From contig JACRFI010000015.1 in the NCBI GenBank assembly GCA_016217965.1, forward strand, positions 16,366-80,365: a DNA stretch of 64,000 nucleotides, in the 5' to 3' direction. The stretch comes from Candidatus Kaiserbacteria bacterium. Lineage in GTDB: Bacteria > Patescibacteriota > Minisyncoccia > Phycocordibacterales > UBA2100. Of this stretch, positions 1-57,772 are shown piece after piece (the stretch's first letter is position 1; each line of letters begins with the position of its first letter). Below the pieces are notes generated by a model. That model saw only the letters and a list, made by a program, of their open reading frames with translations, was not told the origin of the DNA and searched no databases. Position numbers and translations under genes: made by a program.

Positions 1-33
1 TTCAGGCTATCGCGTTCGAAAATAGGATTATTT

Positions 34-744
34 TTGGACTGCCCTCGCTGTTTCTACATCGATAACAAGCTCGGCACTGCGCGCCCGCCTGGATTTCCCT
101 TTAACCTCAATAGCGCAGTTGATGCACTCCTCAAAAAGGAGTTCGACATCCATCGCAGTGGAAAGACAACGCACCCTTTGATGAAAGAATATGGCGTTGA
201 TGCGGTTCCGTTCGACGATCCGCGCATGGATGAGTGGCGTGATTCTTTGAAACGGGGAATTTGCCACAAGCATTCGACCGGATTTATGGTCTGTGGAGGC
301 GTGGACGATGTGTGGGAAAATCCGAAAGGCGAATTGATCATCGTGGACTACAAAGCGACGAGCAAAGACGAGACCATTACAGTATTAGACCAAGAGTGGC
401 ACGATGGCTACAAACGGCAGATGGAAATATACCAATGGCTGTTCCGCCAGAATGGGTTCAAGGTGTCGGATACTGGTTACTTTGTGTACGCGAATGCAGA
501 CAAAGATAAAAAAGCGTTTGACGGGCAACTTGAATTTGAAGTGACATTGGTGCCCTATACGGGGAATGATTCGTGGATTGAAGGCACACTGAAGGAGATC
601 AAGCGGTGTCTTGATAGCGGCGAGTTGCCTGGCGCTGCAGACGACTGTGACTATTGCCGGTATCGGGAAGCTGTCGGAAAGAAAATGCTTGCATTCGCAC
701 CGAAAAAAACGGGAGCAAAGGCGCAAGGATCTCTCGGCTTGTAG
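34..744 (+). CDS. PD-(D/E)XK nuclease with Cys cluster (Cas4/RecB-like); N-terminus may lie upstream of the window
   Basis: IVDYKAT core motif; N-terminal CPRC plus C-terminal C...CDYC, four Cys as in Cas4/AddB Fe-S nucleases; frame is open back to window start. Confidence 0.5.
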   Translation: MDCPRCFYIDNKLGTARPPGFPFNLNSAVDALLKKEFDIHRSGKTTHPLMKEYGVDAVPFDDPRMDEWRDSLKRGICHKHSTGFMVCGGVDDVWENPKGELIIVDYKATSKDETITVLDQEWHDGYKRQMEIYQWLFRQNGFKVSDTGYFVYANADKDKKAFDGQLEFEVTLVPYTGNDSWIEGTLKEIKRCLDSGELPGAADDCDYCRYREAVGKKMLAFAPKKTGAKAQGSLGL

Positions 745-877
745 CCGAATAACCAAATTCCAAGAGACAATAACCAAACAAGTTTCAATAACCAACTTTG
801 AAGTTTGTGATTTGAATATTGTCTGGAGCTTGTGTCTTGGTTATTGGTTATTATTACTGTCATTATGTTACACTCGA
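745..877. repeat. 'AATAACCAA x3 ... TTGGTTATT x2' hairpin element upstream of the MGMT gene
   Basis: Three direct AATAACCAA (747, 768, 786) and two inverted TTGGTTATT (837, 844); shares 15-mer ACAATAACCAAACAA with 29752..29836. Confidence 0.6.
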
Positions 878-1138
878 ATGATGAAATCATTTCGCGATAA
901 GGTTCTCGCTATTGTCAAACGCATCCCCAAAGGCGGTTCAATGACGTACAAACAGGTCGCGACGAAGGCGGGGAATCCTAGAGCGGCTAGAGCAGTAGGC
1001 GCAATCATGCGTACGAATTACGACCCGTCGATACCGTGCCACCGCGTTGTTCGAACCGATGGGCAGATTGGGAATTACAATCGCGGAGGAACCGCGCGAA
1101 AAATTGAACTTCTGCGTGACGAAGGTGCAATACGGTGA
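878..1138 (+). CDS. ogt: methylated-DNA--protein-cysteine methyltransferase, DNA-binding/active-site domain only (86 aa)
   Basis: PCHRVV active-site motif and surrounding MGMT C-domain; likely start is the ATG at 878 inside the longer ORF 611..1138. Confidence 0.7.
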   Translation: MMKSFRDKVLAIVKRIPKGGSMTYKQVATKAGNPRAARAVGAIMRTNYDPSIPCHRVVRTDGQIGNYNRGGTARKIELLRDEGAIR

Positions 1139-29021: not shown

Positions 29022-29755
29022 TGACGGCGTTCTCTTTAGAAACGAGCGGCTATACGGGCCCACTGGACGCGCTGTTGACGCTCATCGAAGACAGAAAGCT
29101 CTCGATATCGGAAGTCTCGCTTGCTGAAGTAACTGACGCGTACCTTTCGTATGTGGAAAGCCTTCCCCAGCTCCCTTTGGGCGAGACGGCTCAATTCATT
29201 CTCATTGCGTCCACGCTTCTACTCATAAAATCTCGCACCCTTCTTCCTAGCGTTGACCTAACGGAAGAGGAGACTCAAAGCATAGAAGAGCTCGAACGCC
29301 GCCTCGCACGGTATGCGCTTATAAGAAAGTGTGCAAAAGTGCTGCGCAACAAGTGGGGCAGTGCGCCGCTTCGATTTCCGAAGCGCCAACCGTCTCCCGA
29401 ATACGCGGCAGGCAGGGAGGCGTCATTCAATCCTGGGGAAACGACGCTTGCTCTACTGTTGCGTGCTGCACAATCACTCCTCAGCACTCTGCCAAAGCCG
29501 GAGAAGCTTGCAGAGGCGACAGTCGCACCGGTATTGAAACTTGAAGAAGTTATCAGCAATCTCCGCACCAGGCTTGCCTCATCGATACGCACCAAATGGA
29601 GCGAACTAACTAATACATCTGGTAAGTACGAGATGATAGTCCATTTTCTTGCAATATTGGAACTGGTTCGAAGTGGCTCTGTTAGTGCCACACAAGAGAA
29701 ACTTTTCAGTGATATCCTATTGGAAACAGAGGCCCTGGGGGCACCACGTTACTAA
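29021..29755 (+). CDS. scpA: segregation and condensation protein A (kleisin)
   Basis: N-terminal YTGPLDALLTLIEDRKL motif typical of ScpA; 244 aa. Confidence 0.7.
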   Translation: MTAFSLETSGYTGPLDALLTLIEDRKLSISEVSLAEVTDAYLSYVESLPQLPLGETAQFILIASTLLLIKSRTLLPSVDLTEEETQSIEELERRLARYALIRKCAKVLRNKWGSAPLRFPKRQPSPEYAAGREASFNPGETTLALLLRAAQSLLSTLPKPEKLAEATVAPVLKLEEVISNLRTRLASSIRTKWSELTNTSGKYEMIVHFLAILELVRSGSVSATQEKLFSDILLETEALGAPRY

Positions 29756-29836
29756 TTACCAAGATACAAGATACAATAACCAAACAAAATACAAAGAATT
29801 CCTCGTTTGTGTGCTGTTTCTTGGTGATTGGTTATT
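29752..29836. repeat. 'AATAACCAA...TTGGTTATT' hairpin element immediately 5' of scpB
   Basis: Shares ACAATAACCAAACAA and TTGTGT...CTTGGT(T/G)ATTGGTTATTA with element at 745..877; arms are reverse complements; ends at scpB ATG. Confidence 0.6.
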
Positions 29837-30415
29837 ATGAACCCACTTGATCTCGCGTCAAAAATACAAGCGCTTCTTTTTGCCGAAGGGGACTCCTTGG
29901 CTATTAAAAAAATTGCGCAGCTGCTCGAGTCCGAACTGCCGGCTGTAGAAGCCGCTTTGATGGAACTTTCGGAGCGCTTGAAAGGCGGACCTCTCGCGCT
30001 CATTCTGACGGATAAGGAAGCGGCGCTCGCAGTATCTTCGGATGCCAAGGATACCGTTTCTTCTGCGAGAGCAAAACTTGAGGAGCGCGAAATAGGCGAC
30101 GCTGGGCTCGAGGTTTTGACGATATTGCTATACGAAGGCCCCTCGACTCGCGCCGATATTGATTACATAAGGGGGGTAAATTCTTCTTCTACGCTGCGTA
30201 CGCTTCTCCTGCGCGGCCTTGTTGAACGCAGCGGCAACCCTGAGGACGGCAGAGAATACATCTACCGCCCGACAGTCGAGCTCCTCGCTCACCTTGGAAG
30301 CCCGTCTCAGAAAGATTTGCCAGAGTATGATACAATCGCGCGCGAACTCTCAGCATTCAAGGCATCGAACGATGTCTTTAAAGAGAACAACAATGGAACC
30401 GGAGAAGGAATTTGA
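29837..30415 (+). CDS. scpB: segregation and condensation protein B
   Basis: IQALLFAEGDSLAIKKIAQLL and winged-helix pair typical of ScpB. Confidence 0.75.
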   Translation: MNPLDLASKIQALLFAEGDSLAIKKIAQLLESELPAVEAALMELSERLKGGPLALILTDKEAALAVSSDAKDTVSSARAKLEEREIGDAGLEVLTILLYEGPSTRADIDYIRGVNSSSTLRTLLLRGLVERSGNPEDGREYIYRPTVELLAHLGSPSQKDLPEYDTIARELSAFKASNDVFKENNNGTGEGI

Positions 30416-56860: not shown

Positions 56861-57772
56861 ATGTGGCAACTCTTTAGCCTCAGCGCGATATTTTGTAACA
56901 CGCTTGAGGAAACAATAGATAAGGCGGCGATGCTTGGTTCGAGCGCACTCGACACATTTGTCGCAGCATTGATTCGGAACATCATCGTGCTTGGTATTGC
57001 GATCGCAGTGGCATTTCTCATCTACCGATCAGTGCCAGAGATAATCTTCTCTCTTCCGATAATCTGGTGGGGCTTCGTATATGCGATACAGGCCATCTCC
57101 TATACGTGGATATTGAAGTACATAGAAATAACGGCAGCCAGCGTAACGTTCGCGCTTCTTCCTCTTGTATTCTTGCCCATAGATATCTTTTTCCGGCACG
57201 AGTCGCTTACTCTGATGCAGATAGGAGGAGTCGGGACATTGGTTATTGGCGGACTTGTTTTCTTTGCACGCAAGGATCTGTCAAAAAGACTCTCAAATGC
57301 CAAATACATATTGATGATGCTTGGCGTTTTGGTTTTTGATGCGATCGTCATTGGTTCAGAAGGATATATTTTCAAGAGTTATTACGAGCAGTATGAGATA
57401 GCGCCCGCTTCTTTCCTTGTAAGCGGAATGCTGTACATGTGCGCCTTTCTTGCAGTAATGCTTGCTATCCGTTTCGCATGGGCCGGCAAGGGTATACAGT
57501 TGCAGGGGGCGCTTTCCTACGCTCGCGGAGCGTCTCTTGCGAAACTAGCGGATTATGGGAATATCTTTTTCACATTGCATGCCCTTACTATTGTGACCGT
57601 TACACAAGTCGCTGCGATGAAAGTTGTCCATCCGTTGATATTGCTGATAATCACGATGTTCGCTCAACAGAAATTCAAAATTGATCTTGAAGAAGTATTC
57701 ACGAAGGAAACCGTCATTCAAAAATGCGCCGGAATCCTGCTTGTGGTCATGGGCTCTTTTCTCGTTGCTTAG
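56861..57772 (+). CDS. hypothetical polytopic membrane protein (transporter-like, ~9-10 TM)
   Basis: Hydropathy only. Confidence 0.4.
   Translation: MWQLFSLSAIFCNTLEETIDKAAMLGSSALDTFVAALIRNIIVLGIAIAVAFLIYRSVPEIIFSLPIIWWGFVYAIQAISYTWILKYIEITAASVTFALLPLVFLPIDIFFRHESLTLMQIGGVGTLVIGGLVFFARKDLSKRLSNAKYILMMLGVLVFDAIVIGSEGYIFKSYYEQYEIAPASFLVSGMLYMCAFLAVMLAIRFAWAGKGIQLQGALSYARGASLAKLADYGNIFFTLHALTIVTVTQVAAMKVVHPLILLIITMFAQQKFKIDLEEVFTKETVIQKCAGILLVVMGSFLVA

What the first reader, a model, noticed from the sequence alone, without database searches (positions are those of the whole stretch)
745..877. Conserved 'AATAACCAA...TTGGTTATT' stem-loop element immediately upstream of two unrelated genes (MGMT and scpB)
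Both copies (745-877 and 29752-29836) share ACAATAACCAAACAA, a TTGTGT box and CTTGGT(T/G)ATTGGTTATTA. The AATAACCAA direct repeats are the exact reverse complement of the downstream TTGGTTATT repeats, so a hairpin can form. The element ends at the scpB ATG, and 25 nt before the MGMT ATG. It could be a cis-regulatory RNA structure, a binding-site array for a regulator, or a small mobile repeat.
Basis: seen in the sequence. Interest (0 to 1): 0.5.

Follow-up and report, generated by a model that had tools for sequence, protein, structure and literature searches.

The report
Mobile heptamer-repeat hairpin, IVS-protein family
The two look-alike stem-loops are not switches for the genes beside them: they are gene-less copies of a small palindromic element, built from 7-base repeats, that has inserted into this genome, occurs in at least eight bacterial phyla, and elsewhere forms the two arms around a small gene otherwise known from the intervening sequences of ribosomal RNA.

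Summary
AATAACCAA occurs 8 times in the window against 0.42 expected, and 7 of the 8 lie in two intergenic hairpins: E1 (748-852) and E2 (29754-29836).

Neither is a regulator of the MGMT-like gene or of scpB. Both sites are empty in the closest syntenic relatives. The same left-arm 22-mer occurs at more than 119 loci, next to unrelated genes, in Omnitrophota, Patescibacteria, Chloroflexota, Planctomycetota, Saganbacteria, Elusimicrobia and others.

The family is a 58-257 bp imperfect palindrome (most copies about 100-150 bp) with sharp ends: AATAACCAA...TTGGTTATT. Its arms are degenerate 7-nt units, nnnnCAA on the left and TTGnnnn on the right. There is no target-site duplication. Copies usually start right after the stop codon of the gene upstream.

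In five Patescibacteria loci the same arms enclose or flank a 113-125 aa PF05635 gene (23S rRNA intervening-sequence protein, also called S23p, Avd-like). Of 74 loci chosen only by that protein, 85% have in-phase heptamer arrays on both sides, against 0 of 98 controls. Eight plasmid loci from cyanobacteria, Bacteroidota and Chloroflexota also have period-7 arrays on both sides.

E1 and E2 are therefore ORF-less copies of a selfish element resembling an rRNA intervening sequence. I infer, but have not shown, that they are tolerated as self-contained RNA hairpins cut by RNase III. How they move is unknown.

The parts
748..852 (.). E1: complete ORF-less heptamer-repeat hairpin element (105 bp)
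   Evidence: The family's left boundary is AATAACCAA and its right boundary is ...TTGGTTATT. E1 folds at -38 kcal/mol, z = -6.96. The site is empty in relatives L207 and L206.
748..797 (+). E1 left arm: CAA-type heptads, with AATAACCAA at 748, 769 and 787; contains the 22-mer CCAAGAGACAATAACCAAACAA at 760-781
   Evidence: Periodic CAA array found.
802..852 (+). E1 right arm: TTG-type heptads, ending CTTGGTTATTGGTTATT
   Evidence: Periodic TTG array found.
742..744 (+). Stop codon (TAG) of the PD-(D/E)XK nuclease gene, 3 nt before E1
878..1138 (+). Small PF01035 (MGMT DNA-binding-domain) gene downstream of E1. ATG codons at 878 and 881; the gene caller used 881.
29754..29836 (.). E2: complete ORF-less heptamer-repeat hairpin element (83 bp) that fills the scpA-scpB spacer
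   Evidence: The site is empty (4, 9 and 6 nt spacers) in L121, L122 and L123.
29751..29776 (+). E2 left arm (AATTACCAAGATACAAGATACAA...), paired in the predicted fold; overlaps the scpA stop codon
   Evidence: A 28-30 nt stretch is 100% identical to arms directly upstream of PF05635 genes in L173 and L139.
29807..29836 (+). E2 right arm (TTGTGTGCTGTTTCTTGGTGATTGGTTATT); it ends one base before the scpB ATG
29753..29755 (+). scpA stop codon (TAA), at the 5' foot of the E2 stem
29837..29839 (+). scpB start codon, 5 nt beyond the 3' foot of the E2 stem

Best explanation
**What they are.** E1 and E2 are two non-autonomous (ORF-less) copies of a widespread selfish palindromic element. Its two arms are inverted arrays of degenerate heptamers: nnnnCAA on the left and TTGnnnn on the right, here TAACCAA, GATACAA and similar. 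In full-length relatives the same arms enclose a small PF05635 gene. That gene encodes the four-helix-bundle 23S rRNA intervening-sequence protein, also called S23p, which is Avd-like. The architecture matches the ORF-bearing intervening sequences (IVSs) of 23S rRNA, but here it sits between protein-coding genes.

**Shown.**
- Both window copies are lineage-specific insertions.
- Each lies directly after the stop codon of the upstream gene.
- There is no target-site duplication.

**Inferred.**
- When the operon is transcribed, each copy folds into a self-contained imperfect stem whose arms are about 26 nt (E2) and about 41-50 nt (E1) long, which loops the insert out.
- By analogy with rRNA IVSs, the stem is a likely RNase III substrate.
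- In E2 the scpA stop codon lies in the 5' foot of the stem and the scpB ATG lies just past the 3' foot. A ribosome finishing scpA would therefore melt the stem and expose the scpB start, so the translational coupling seen in relatives (4-9 nt spacers) could survive the insertion.

**What they are not.** They are not gene-specific regulators.

**Unknown.** The DNA-level mobility mechanism. The leading candidate partner is the PF05635 protein acting in trans.
For: **Family membership**
- Conservation starts and stops sharply at AATAACCAA and TTGGTTATT.
- All 39 tested copies fold with z < -3; the median z is -8.

**Insertion**
- The scpA-scpB spacer is 4, 9 and 6 nt in three syntenic relatives, against 81 nt in the window.
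- The spacer between the PD-(D/E)XK and PF01035 genes is 17 nt and an unrelated 54 nt in relatives whose nuclease is 81% and 86% identical, against 133-136 nt in the window.
- None of these relatives has a heptad array at either site.

**Link to PF05635**
- The arms enclose or flank the gene in L038, L043, L084, L095 and L096 (Pfam E about 1e-15).
- Among 74 loci selected only by the protein, 85% have in-phase CAA arrays upstream and TTG arrays downstream, against 0 of 98 controls. 91% have inverted-repeat score >= 30, against 0% of controls.
- Tandem Repeats Finder finds arrays of period 7, 14 or 21 in 81 of 88 loci.
- E2's left arm is 100% identical over 28-30 nt to arms directly upstream of PF05635 genes in L173 and L139.
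- An arm pairs better with its own partner than with arms from other loci: 48.6 against 35.7.

**Analogy to rRNA IVSs**
- The Coxiella 23S IVS is described as a selfish 428-nt element. It has a stem formed by terminal inverted repeats and cut by RNase III, an S23p ORF in the loop, and tandem heptamers (GACAGAT) of variable number directly upstream of the ORF (PMC4990558).
- CPR bacteria retain the RNase III gene rnc (PMC12641178).
- PF05635 ORFs occur in insertions within CPR rRNA genes (PMC11270868).

**Position**
- 24 of 39 copies lie within 30 nt of the upstream stop codon.
Against: - No transcript or cleavage data exist. RNase III processing and the coupling model are inferences.
- No PF05635 gene lies in the window or in the 7 kb upstream of it. 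A trans-acting partner in this genome is therefore unverified.
- No strand asymmetry was found: 136 G-U against 119 A-C mismatches, and sense versus antisense folding energy p = 0.16. Nothing favours an RNA-level over a DNA-level palindrome.
- PF05635 has no known nuclease or recombinase activity, and no transposase was found.
- Only two copies can be seen in about 71 kb of this genome.
- The context statistics rest on crude longest-ORF gene calls.
Confidence: 0.65

Rival explanations
1. Gene-specific cis-regulatory element: an RNA structure or operator array controlling the MGMT-like gene and scpB.
For: Two similar hairpins sit directly upstream of two genes. E2 abuts the scpB ATG.
Against: - Both sites are empty in syntenic relatives.
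- The same element lies beside unrelated genes at more than 119 loci in many phyla.
- The family pattern is adjacency to the upstream stop codon, not to start codons.
- No Rfam family matches.
- No sigma-70-like promoter was found on the coding strand.
Confidence: 0.03
2. Classical MITE: a deletion derivative of a DDE-transposase insertion sequence, moved by cut-and-paste through its terminal inverted repeats.
For: - Terminal inverted repeats, a size of about 85-150 bp, intergenic location, many copies, and empty sites in relatives.
- A Logan contig breaks inside E2.
Against: - There is no target-site duplication at any length from 1 to 8 nt; observed counts equal the shuffled expectation.
- The arms are variable-number heptamer arrays, not fixed terminal repeats.
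- The only longer relatives carry PF05635, not a transposase.
Confidence: 0.08
3. REPIN/RAYT-like or IS200/IS605-like system: hairpin doublets mobilised as single-stranded DNA by a Y1 (HUH) transposase encoded once per genome.
For: No target-site duplication, about 100 bp symmetric hairpins, an intergenic position close to gene 3' ends, and tens of copies per genome. This is how REPINs look (my own knowledge of Bertels and Rainey's work).
Against: - No Y1 transposase homologue was found in 1.28 Mb of fetched loci. This is a weak test, because the query sequence was recalled from memory.
- The ends lack the conserved GTAG/CTAC-type REP motif.
- REP sequences are lineage-specific, whereas this 22-mer is identical across phyla.
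- The consistent partner gene is PF05635.
Confidence: 0.1
4. In-situ simple-sequence expansion, like cyanobacterial STRR heptamer repeats: the heptamers grow locally by replication slippage and the elements never moved.
For: - The number of heptads varies between copies.
- L144 carries about 14 tandem GATACAA units upstream of its PF05635 gene.
- The heptamer copy number varies between Coxiella strains (PMC4990558).
Against: - Identical 22-30 nt blocks and sharp boundaries are shared across phyla.
- Two independent sites in one genome acquired the same ends, while close relatives have short unrelated spacers.

Slippage explains length variation after insertion. It does not explain the origin.
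Confidence: 0.05
5. Host-beneficial 3' hairpin: the copies are retained because they act as mRNA 3'-end stabilisers, terminators or cistron separators, as proposed for REP elements. This does not exclude a selfish origin.
For: - 24 of 39 copies begin within 30 nt of the upstream stop codon.
- The hairpins are strong.
- The base after the element is T in 24 of 36 copies.
Against: - There is no G+C-rich stem with a U-tract, and no terminator-like site in either region.
- E2 lies inside the scpA-scpB pair, where termination would be harmful.
- Adjacency to the stop codon could equally reflect where insertions are tolerated, because the element brings its own TAA codons.
Confidence: 0.12

Closest known systems
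ORF-bearing intervening sequences (IVSs) of 23S rRNA (Coxiella burnetii, Leptospira, Haemophilus, Brucella; PMC4990558)
   Same: - Terminal inverted repeats form a long stem.
- A PF05635/S23p ORF sits in the loop.
- Tandem heptamers of variable number lie directly upstream of the ORF.
- Distribution is sporadic and attributed to horizontal transfer.
- The Coxiella IVS is described as selfish.
- ORF-less short IVS hairpins also exist (Salmonella type).
   Different: - The elements here lie between protein-coding genes, not in 23S helices 9, 25 or 45. No rRNA motifs lie near 80 PF05635 loci.
- E1 and E2 lack the ORF.
- The heptamer sequence differs: TAACCAA and GATACAA here, GACAGAT in Coxiella.
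- RNase III excision has not been tested here.
- Solo copies far outnumber ORF-bearing ones.
REPIN-RAYT systems and REP/BIME elements of proteobacteria
   Same: Symmetric hairpins of about 100 bp, intergenic and close to gene 3' ends, with no target-site duplication and tens to hundreds of copies. A single protein family is the proposed partner.
   Different: The partner gene is a four-helix-bundle PF05635 protein, not a Y1 transposase. The arms are heptamer arrays. The same sequence is shared across phyla rather than being lineage-specific.
Cyanobacterial STRR heptanucleotide repeats, and the TAACTGA heptamer repeats of Beggiatoaceae, Cyanobacteria and Bacteroidetes (PMC4679880)
   Same: - Intergenic tandem heptamers of unknown function.
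- A cross-phylum distribution with no evident transfer mechanism.
- Arrays lying next to start codons.
- Related unit sequences: TGACCAA is the reverse complement of STRR2 TTGGTCA (the STRR2 sequence is from my own memory), and TAACCAA resembles TAACTGA.
- In plasmids of Nostoc, Planktothrix, Anabaena and Bernardetia, such heptamer arrays flank PF05635 genes as inverted arms.
   Different: Those repeats were described as direct repeats, with no partner gene and no hairpin unit. The element here is a bounded palindrome with conserved non-repetitive ends.
Bacterial MITEs (for example Correia, RUP, Nezha)
   Same: Small, with inverted-repeat ends, intergenic, multi-copy, and polymorphic between relatives.
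   Different: There is no target-site duplication, no transposase-bearing parent, and the arms are built from variable numbers of heptamers.

Membership tests
23S rRNA intervening sequence (S23p/PF05635 type) | Inserted in a 23S rRNA helix (9, 25 or 45) | tested here: not met
   E1 and E2 lie between protein-coding genes. No conserved rRNA motifs were found in 80 PF05635 loci. Only L072 holds a 23S gene, and the element lies outside it.
23S rRNA intervening sequence (S23p/PF05635 type) | Terminal inverted repeats that form an extended stem-loop | tested here: met
   E1 has 41-nt arms that are 76% complementary and z = -6.96. E2 has z = -4.59. Across the family the median z is -8.
23S rRNA intervening sequence (S23p/PF05635 type) | PF05635 ORF in the loop (long form) | tested here: not met
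   E1 and E2 have no ORF, and there is no PF05635 homologue anywhere in the window. The feature is met by sister copies L038, L084 and L096 (ORF inside the arms) and by L043 and L095 (ORF flanked by arms), and by 74 loci selected through the protein.
23S rRNA intervening sequence (S23p/PF05635 type) | Tandem heptameric repeats in the stem, next to the ORF | tested here: met
   CAA and TTG recur at 7-nt intervals in E1 and E2. Arrays of period 7, 14 or 21 occur in 81 of 88 PF05635 loci. In Coxiella the heptamer is GACAGAT (PMC4990558).
23S rRNA intervening sequence (S23p/PF05635 type) | Excision of the stem-loop from the transcript by RNase III | not testable with these tools
   No transcript data are available. 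CPR bacteria retain rnc according to PMC12641178. A tblastn search for RNase III (E. coli sequence recalled from memory) found no homologue in the window or in any fetched locus, which is uninformative.
MITE (non-autonomous DDE transposon) | Terminal inverted repeats, under 300 bp, multi-copy | tested here: met
MITE (non-autonomous DDE transposon) | Target-site duplication flanking each copy | tested here: not met
   Among 36 well-bounded copies, matches between the two flanks equal the shuffled expectation for every length from 1 to 8 nt.
MITE (non-autonomous DDE transposon) | A parent insertion sequence with the same ends and a transposase gene | tested here: not met
   Arms more than 330 bp apart enclose only PF05635 genes. 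This test is limited to 8-kb loci.
REP/REPIN-RAYT | A RAYT (Y1 HUH transposase) gene associated with the repeats | tested here: inconclusive
   A tblastn search with an IS200 TnpA sequence recalled from memory found nothing in 1.28 Mb. No whole genomes were searched.
REP/REPIN-RAYT | A short (20-40 nt) imperfect palindrome with a conserved GTAG/CTAC-type end, specific to one lineage | tested here: not met
   The ends are AATAACCAA and TTGGTTATT, and they are identical across phyla.
STRR / TAACTGA-type heptamer repeats | Intergenic tandem direct repeats of a heptanucleotide | tested here: met
   Each arm holds degenerate 7-nt units. Here they are also arranged as two inverted arrays with conserved ends.
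Intrinsic (Rho-independent) terminator | A G+C-rich stem followed by a U-tract | tested here: not met
   No terminator-like site was found in either region.
Any curated RNA family (Rfam 15) | A match at or above the family's gathering score | tested here: not met
   The window has no hit at gathering thresholds. With permissive settings, only generic hairpin matches (microRNA precursors and similar) appear, far below threshold.

The most novel reading that the evidence does not exclude
PF05635 proteins form toroidal, Avd-like homopentamers and have had no assigned function since the 1990s. Under this reading they are the sequence-specific partners of heptamer arrays, with each subunit reading one 7-nt unit.

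Protein and repeats together would form a pan-bacterial selfish system analogous to RAYT-REPIN. That one system would unite four things:
- rRNA intervening sequences;
- cyanobacterial STRR repeats;
- TAACTGA-type repeats;
- the solo hairpins of CPR and Omnitrophota genomes, such as E1 and E2, which the protein would maintain or mobilise in trans.
Probability: 0.3. Interest if true: 0.85.

Novelty: new variant of a known kind. Interest (0 to 1): 0.66.

Why it matters
**For this genome.** The result removes a false lead. The two hairpins are recent insertions, not a shared regulon signal.

**More widely.** It connects three old unexplained observations:
- where rRNA intervening sequences come from;
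- what the S23p/PF05635 "four helix bundle" proteins do;
- why heptanucleotide repeats litter cyanobacterial and some other genomes.

The connecting rule is testable: PF05635 genes sit in the loop of a hairpin whose arms are inverted heptamer arrays, and the arms alone disperse as solo elements. The searchable literature describes this only for the single Coxiella IVS.

**Practical points.**
- Identical 22-30 nt blocks across phyla point to a strong sequence-specific constraint or to recent horizontal spread. Either makes these elements useful markers of gene flow among groundwater CPR, Omnitrophota and Chloroflexota.
- The elements may also break assemblies: one Logan contig starts inside E2, and MacGregor notes contigs ending within heptamer-repeat regions (PMC4679880).

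Tried and rejected
- **Rfam.** Gathering thresholds over the whole window gave nothing. Permissive settings over 700-900 gave only generic hairpin hits far below threshold.
- **Promoter and terminator scans.** Nothing on the coding strand.
- **Viral contigs.** No match to the 22-mer in 2.9 million contigs, so the element is not phage-borne.
- **Target-site duplication.** None.
- **Strand-specific RNA selection.** G-U against A-C mismatch counts and sense against antisense folding energies both showed no asymmetry.
- **Elements inside rRNA genes.**
  - Rfam on 10 loci found only tRNA and tmRNA genes.
  - A conserved-motif scan of all loci found one 23S gene (L072), with the element outside it.
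- **Y1 transposase and RNase III.** tblastn searches over all fetched DNA found nothing. Both queries were recalled from memory, so these are weak tests.
- **Literature search by sequence strings.** Only primer matches came back.
- **L123 TTG array.** A periodic TTG array at L123 3128-3232 proved to be coding sequence by chance.
- **Exact-protein look-up.** The MGMT-like protein starting at the first ATG (878) was not on record.
- **Artefact or contamination.** I considered this because the 22-mer is shared by many MAGs. I rejected it because copies differ in their centres, sit precisely between real genes, and occur on contigs of 0.4-2 Mb with consistent taxonomy.
Full report
**1.

AATAACCAA occurs 8 times in the window, counting both strands, against 0.42 expected. 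Seven of the eight lie in two intergenic stretches. One-mismatch copies at 29754 and 29821 complete the second stretch.

The two stretches align over their ends and differ in their centres. On the left they share AATWACCAA-N12-ACAATAACCAAACAA, and on the right CTTGGTKATTGGTTATTAT.

Both fold as long hairpins far better than shuffled sequence. E1 gives -38 kcal/mol, z = -6.96. E2 gives -25.4 kcal/mol, z = -4.59.

- E1 begins 3 nt after the TAG of a PD-(D/E)XK nuclease gene and ends 25 nt before the ATG of an 85-86 aa PF01035 (MGMT DNA-binding domain) gene.
- E2 begins inside the scpA TAA and ends one base before the scpB ATG.
- A scan for CAA or TTG recurring at 7-nt intervals finds only these two places in 64 kb.

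**2. They are insertions, not conserved regulatory sequence**

The window comes from a Candidatus Kaiserbacteria genome (Patescibacteria/CPR); source names are.

- **scpA-scpB site.** Three relatives keep the same gene order around scpA and scpB, with ScpB 65-68% identical. Their scpA-scpB spacers are 4, 9 and 6 nt, against 81 nt here, and none has either 9-mer in about 20 kb.
- **Nuclease-PF01035 site.** Two relatives keep the nuclease-PF01035 gene pair, with the nuclease 86% and 81% identical. Their spacers are an unrelated 54 nt and 17 nt, against 133-136 nt here.

Both copies were therefore gained in this lineage. That rules out a conserved cis-regulator of either gene.

**3. The element belongs to a very widespread family**

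The left-arm 22-mer CCAAGANACAATAACCAAACAA was scanned against one genome per species of bacteria and archaea.

The hits come from:
- Omnitrophota, with 11 loci in a single MAG;
- many Patescibacteria lineages;
- Chloroflexota, Planctomycetota, Saganbacteria/WOR-1 and Elusimicrobia;
- a few bins labelled proteobacterial.

Several hits are on contigs of 0.4-2 Mb, so mis-binning cannot explain the spread. The 22-mer is absent from 2.9 million viral contigs.

Anatomy, from aligning the 124 hits:
- Conservation starts abruptly at AATAACCAA, 12 nt before the 22-mer, and ends abruptly at ...CTTGGTTATTGGTTATT.
- Complete copies are 58-257 bp, mostly about 100-150 bp.
- They are imperfect palindromes, and all 39 tested fold with z < -3 (median -8).
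- The arms are degenerate heptamers. In the left arm CAA recurs every 7 nt (TAACCAA, GATACAA, GAAACAA, TGACCAA, ATTCCAA), with one 4-nt phase shift at ACAA. The right arm mirrors this with TTG.
- There is no target-site duplication at any length from 1 to 8 nt.

Position, using crude longest-ORF gene calls:
- 39 of the 45 copies with both neighbouring genes called, and not inside a called ORF, lie between co-directional genes.
- Of those 39, 24 start within 30 nt of the stop codon of the transcriptionally upstream gene. Often the stop is the element's own TAA.
- Only 10 of the 39 lie within 30 nt of the next start codon.

Both window copies follow the stop-codon rule.

**4. The arms belong to a gene**

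In L038, L084 and L096 the two arms lie about 370-420 nt apart and enclose a 113-125 aa ORF (truncated at its C-terminus in L084). In L043 and L095 the same kind of ORF is flanked by arms and a complete hairpin. All five loci are from Patescibacteria.

[quoted passage not shown] The ORFs of L084 and L095 are 64-69% identical to those of L096 and L043. The nearest solved structure is 2RLD, deposited with five chains. The family resembles the DGR accessory protein Avd (PMC10053308).

To remove the bias of seeding with the 22-mer, I searched metagenome contigs with the protein alone. That gave 590 relatives, of which the best 80 were kept.

| Test | PF05635 loci | Controls |
|---|---|---|
| At least 2 in-phase CAA pairs upstream and at least 2 in-phase TTG pairs downstream | 85% of 74 | 0 of 98 windows in the same loci |
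| Arms mutually complementary (score >= 30) | 91% | 0% |
| Mean score, arm against its own partner versus arms of other loci | 48.6 | 35.7 |
| Array of period 7, 14 or 21 in at least one flank (Tandem Repeats Finder) | 81 of 88 | not computed per locus |

Other findings from this protein-selected set:
- An arm's own partner is the best of 74 in 14% of cases.
- Period 7 is the commonest best period: 67 of 152 flanks, with a further 28 at period 14. In control windows period 6 dominates.
- E2's left arm is 100% identical over 28-30 nt to the arm directly upstream of PF05635 genes in L173 and L139.
- The gene points the same way as both neighbours in 49 of 64 cases and never opposes both.
- Arms of about 85 nt fill the gaps to the neighbouring genes.
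- No rRNA motifs lie nearby.

The rule extends to finished plasmid sequences. All eight PF05635 genes examined have period-7 arrays on both sides. They come from Nostoc punctiforme, N. flagelliforme, Planktothrix, Anabaena cylindrica, Gloeocapsa, Pseudanabaena, Bernardetia (Bacteroidota) and Candidatus Chlorohelix (Chloroflexota). In the clearest cases the arrays are perfect inverted arms, for example (CAATTCG)4 ... (CGAATTG)4 in N. punctiforme.

The heptamer sequence differs between lineages. The 7-nt period and the inverted arrangement do not.

**5. Comparison with what is known**

*rRNA intervening sequences.* The architecture matches the ORF-bearing intervening sequences of 23S rRNA. The Coxiella IVS is described as a selfish 428-nt element (PMC4990558). 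Its terminal inverted repeats form a stem cut by RNase III, an S23p (PF05635) ORF sits in the loop, and tandem GACAGAT heptamers of variable number lie directly upstream of the ORF. PF05635 ORFs also occur in insertions in CPR rRNA genes (PMC11270868).

E1 and E2 fail two defining features of an rRNA IVS: they are not in rRNA, and they have no ORF. I therefore do not file them as IVSs. They are ORF-less members of the same kind of element living in protein-coding operons.

*MITEs and REPINs.* They resemble MITEs and REPINs in how they sit in genomes. They lack the target-site duplication and transposase parent of a MITE. They also lack the Y1 transposase and lineage-specific REP motif of a REPIN, although the transposase test was weak.

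*Heptamer repeats.* They share the heptamer building blocks of cyanobacterial STRR repeats and of the TAACTGA repeats of Beggiatoaceae, cyanobacteria and Bacteroidetes. For the TAACTGA repeats, horizontal spread "with no evident mechanism" was proposed (PMC4679880).

*Literature gap.* I found no paper in the searchable library linking heptamer repeats to PF05635 beyond the Coxiella case. That library omits most subscription journals.

**6. How it most likely works**

Shown:
- It is a dispersed element, bounded and palindromic, and gained by insertion.
- It carries no target-site duplication.
- It sits preferentially just after stop codons.
- Its arms are identical to those of PF05635 cassettes.

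Inferred:
- On transcription the copy folds into a self-contained stem, which makes the insertion nearly neutral, as an IVS is in rRNA.
- A stem of this length is a plausible RNase III substrate, and CPR bacteria retain rnc (PMC12641178).
- In E2 the scpA stop codon lies in the 5' foot of the stem and the scpB ATG lies 5 nt past the 3' foot. A terminating ribosome would melt the stem and free the scpB start, which would preserve the tight coupling seen in relatives.

Not resolved:
- *RNA or DNA.* There is no strand asymmetry: 136 G-U against 119 A-C mismatches, and sense against antisense folding energy p = 0.16. The data do not say whether selection acts on RNA or DNA. E2 alone is 6 kcal/mol more stable in the sense strand, through two G-U pairs.
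- *Mobility.* The mechanism is unknown. Heptad numbers clearly drift by slippage: L144 has about 14 tandem GATACAA units. Slippage cannot explain identical 22-30 nt blocks across phyla.

**7. Verdict**

The element is a new variant of a known kind, an IVS-like heptamer hairpin outside rRNA. The wider rule it exposed is that PF05635 genes sit in heptamer-array hairpins and their arms disperse alone. That is the interesting part, and it makes the function of a long-unexplained protein family directly testable.

Noticed in passing
L208-L215 (plasmids of Nostoc, Planktothrix, Anabaena, Gloeocapsa, Pseudanabaena, Chlorohelix, Bernardetia): In finished plasmids, PF05635 'four helix bundle' genes sit inside defence operons. 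They lie between drmD and an MmeI-type enzyme (DISARM, Planktothrix), between cas2 and cas1 (Anabaena cylindrica), next to cas1 (Pseudanabaena), and between DUF1156 and a Swt1-family HEPN gene in both Gloeocapsa and Chlorohelix.
   Followed up: partly
L144:1330-1500: About 14 tandem GATACAA/GGTACAA heptamers lie directly upstream of a PF05635 gene. This is a microsatellite-like expansion of one arm unit.
   Followed up: no
L003, L120, L074, L103, L035, L039 (loops or arms of the elements): Other small G+C-rich palindromic repeats are nested inside the hairpins, for example ccgcctctggcgg and gggcccgttccccgaacgggccg. The loops may be landing sites for a second repeat family.
   Followed up: no
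L001:1-80 (window 29759-29838): The only other assembly carrying this exact ScpB protein, a Logan contig from SRR12113407, starts inside E2. That fits an assembly break at a repeat. The Logan contig covering E1 (L205) is not broken.
   Followed up: partly
L111:1815-1945 and 1966-2309: A complete hairpin element lies about 20 nt upstream of a tmRNA gene in a Nealsonbacteria MAG.
   Followed up: no
L149 and L154, around 1501-1833: A PF05635 cassette sits just upstream of rplK. The upstream gene, which looks like nusG, was not checked. The position is inside a core ribosomal-protein gene cluster (identified by reading the flanking sequence, not by a search).
   Followed up: no
window 57239-57247: An isolated ninth copy of the 9-mer (minus strand) lies inside ORF 56861-57772. 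It has no partner or heptad array nearby and is most likely chance.
   Followed up: yes
window 1-744 and L205:7168-7968: The first gene of the window is cut by the window edge. It is a 266 aa PD-(D/E)XK (Cas4/RecB-like) nuclease with a C-terminal cysteine cluster, well conserved (70-86% identity) in Kaiserbacteria and other Parcubacteria.
   Followed up: partly
L121:9996-10000, L122:9991-10000, L123:9994-10000: In relatives the scpA-scpB spacers are 4-9 nt with no Shine-Dalgarno-like sequence. This suggests that scpB is translated by coupling or re-initiation in this clade.
   Followed up: no
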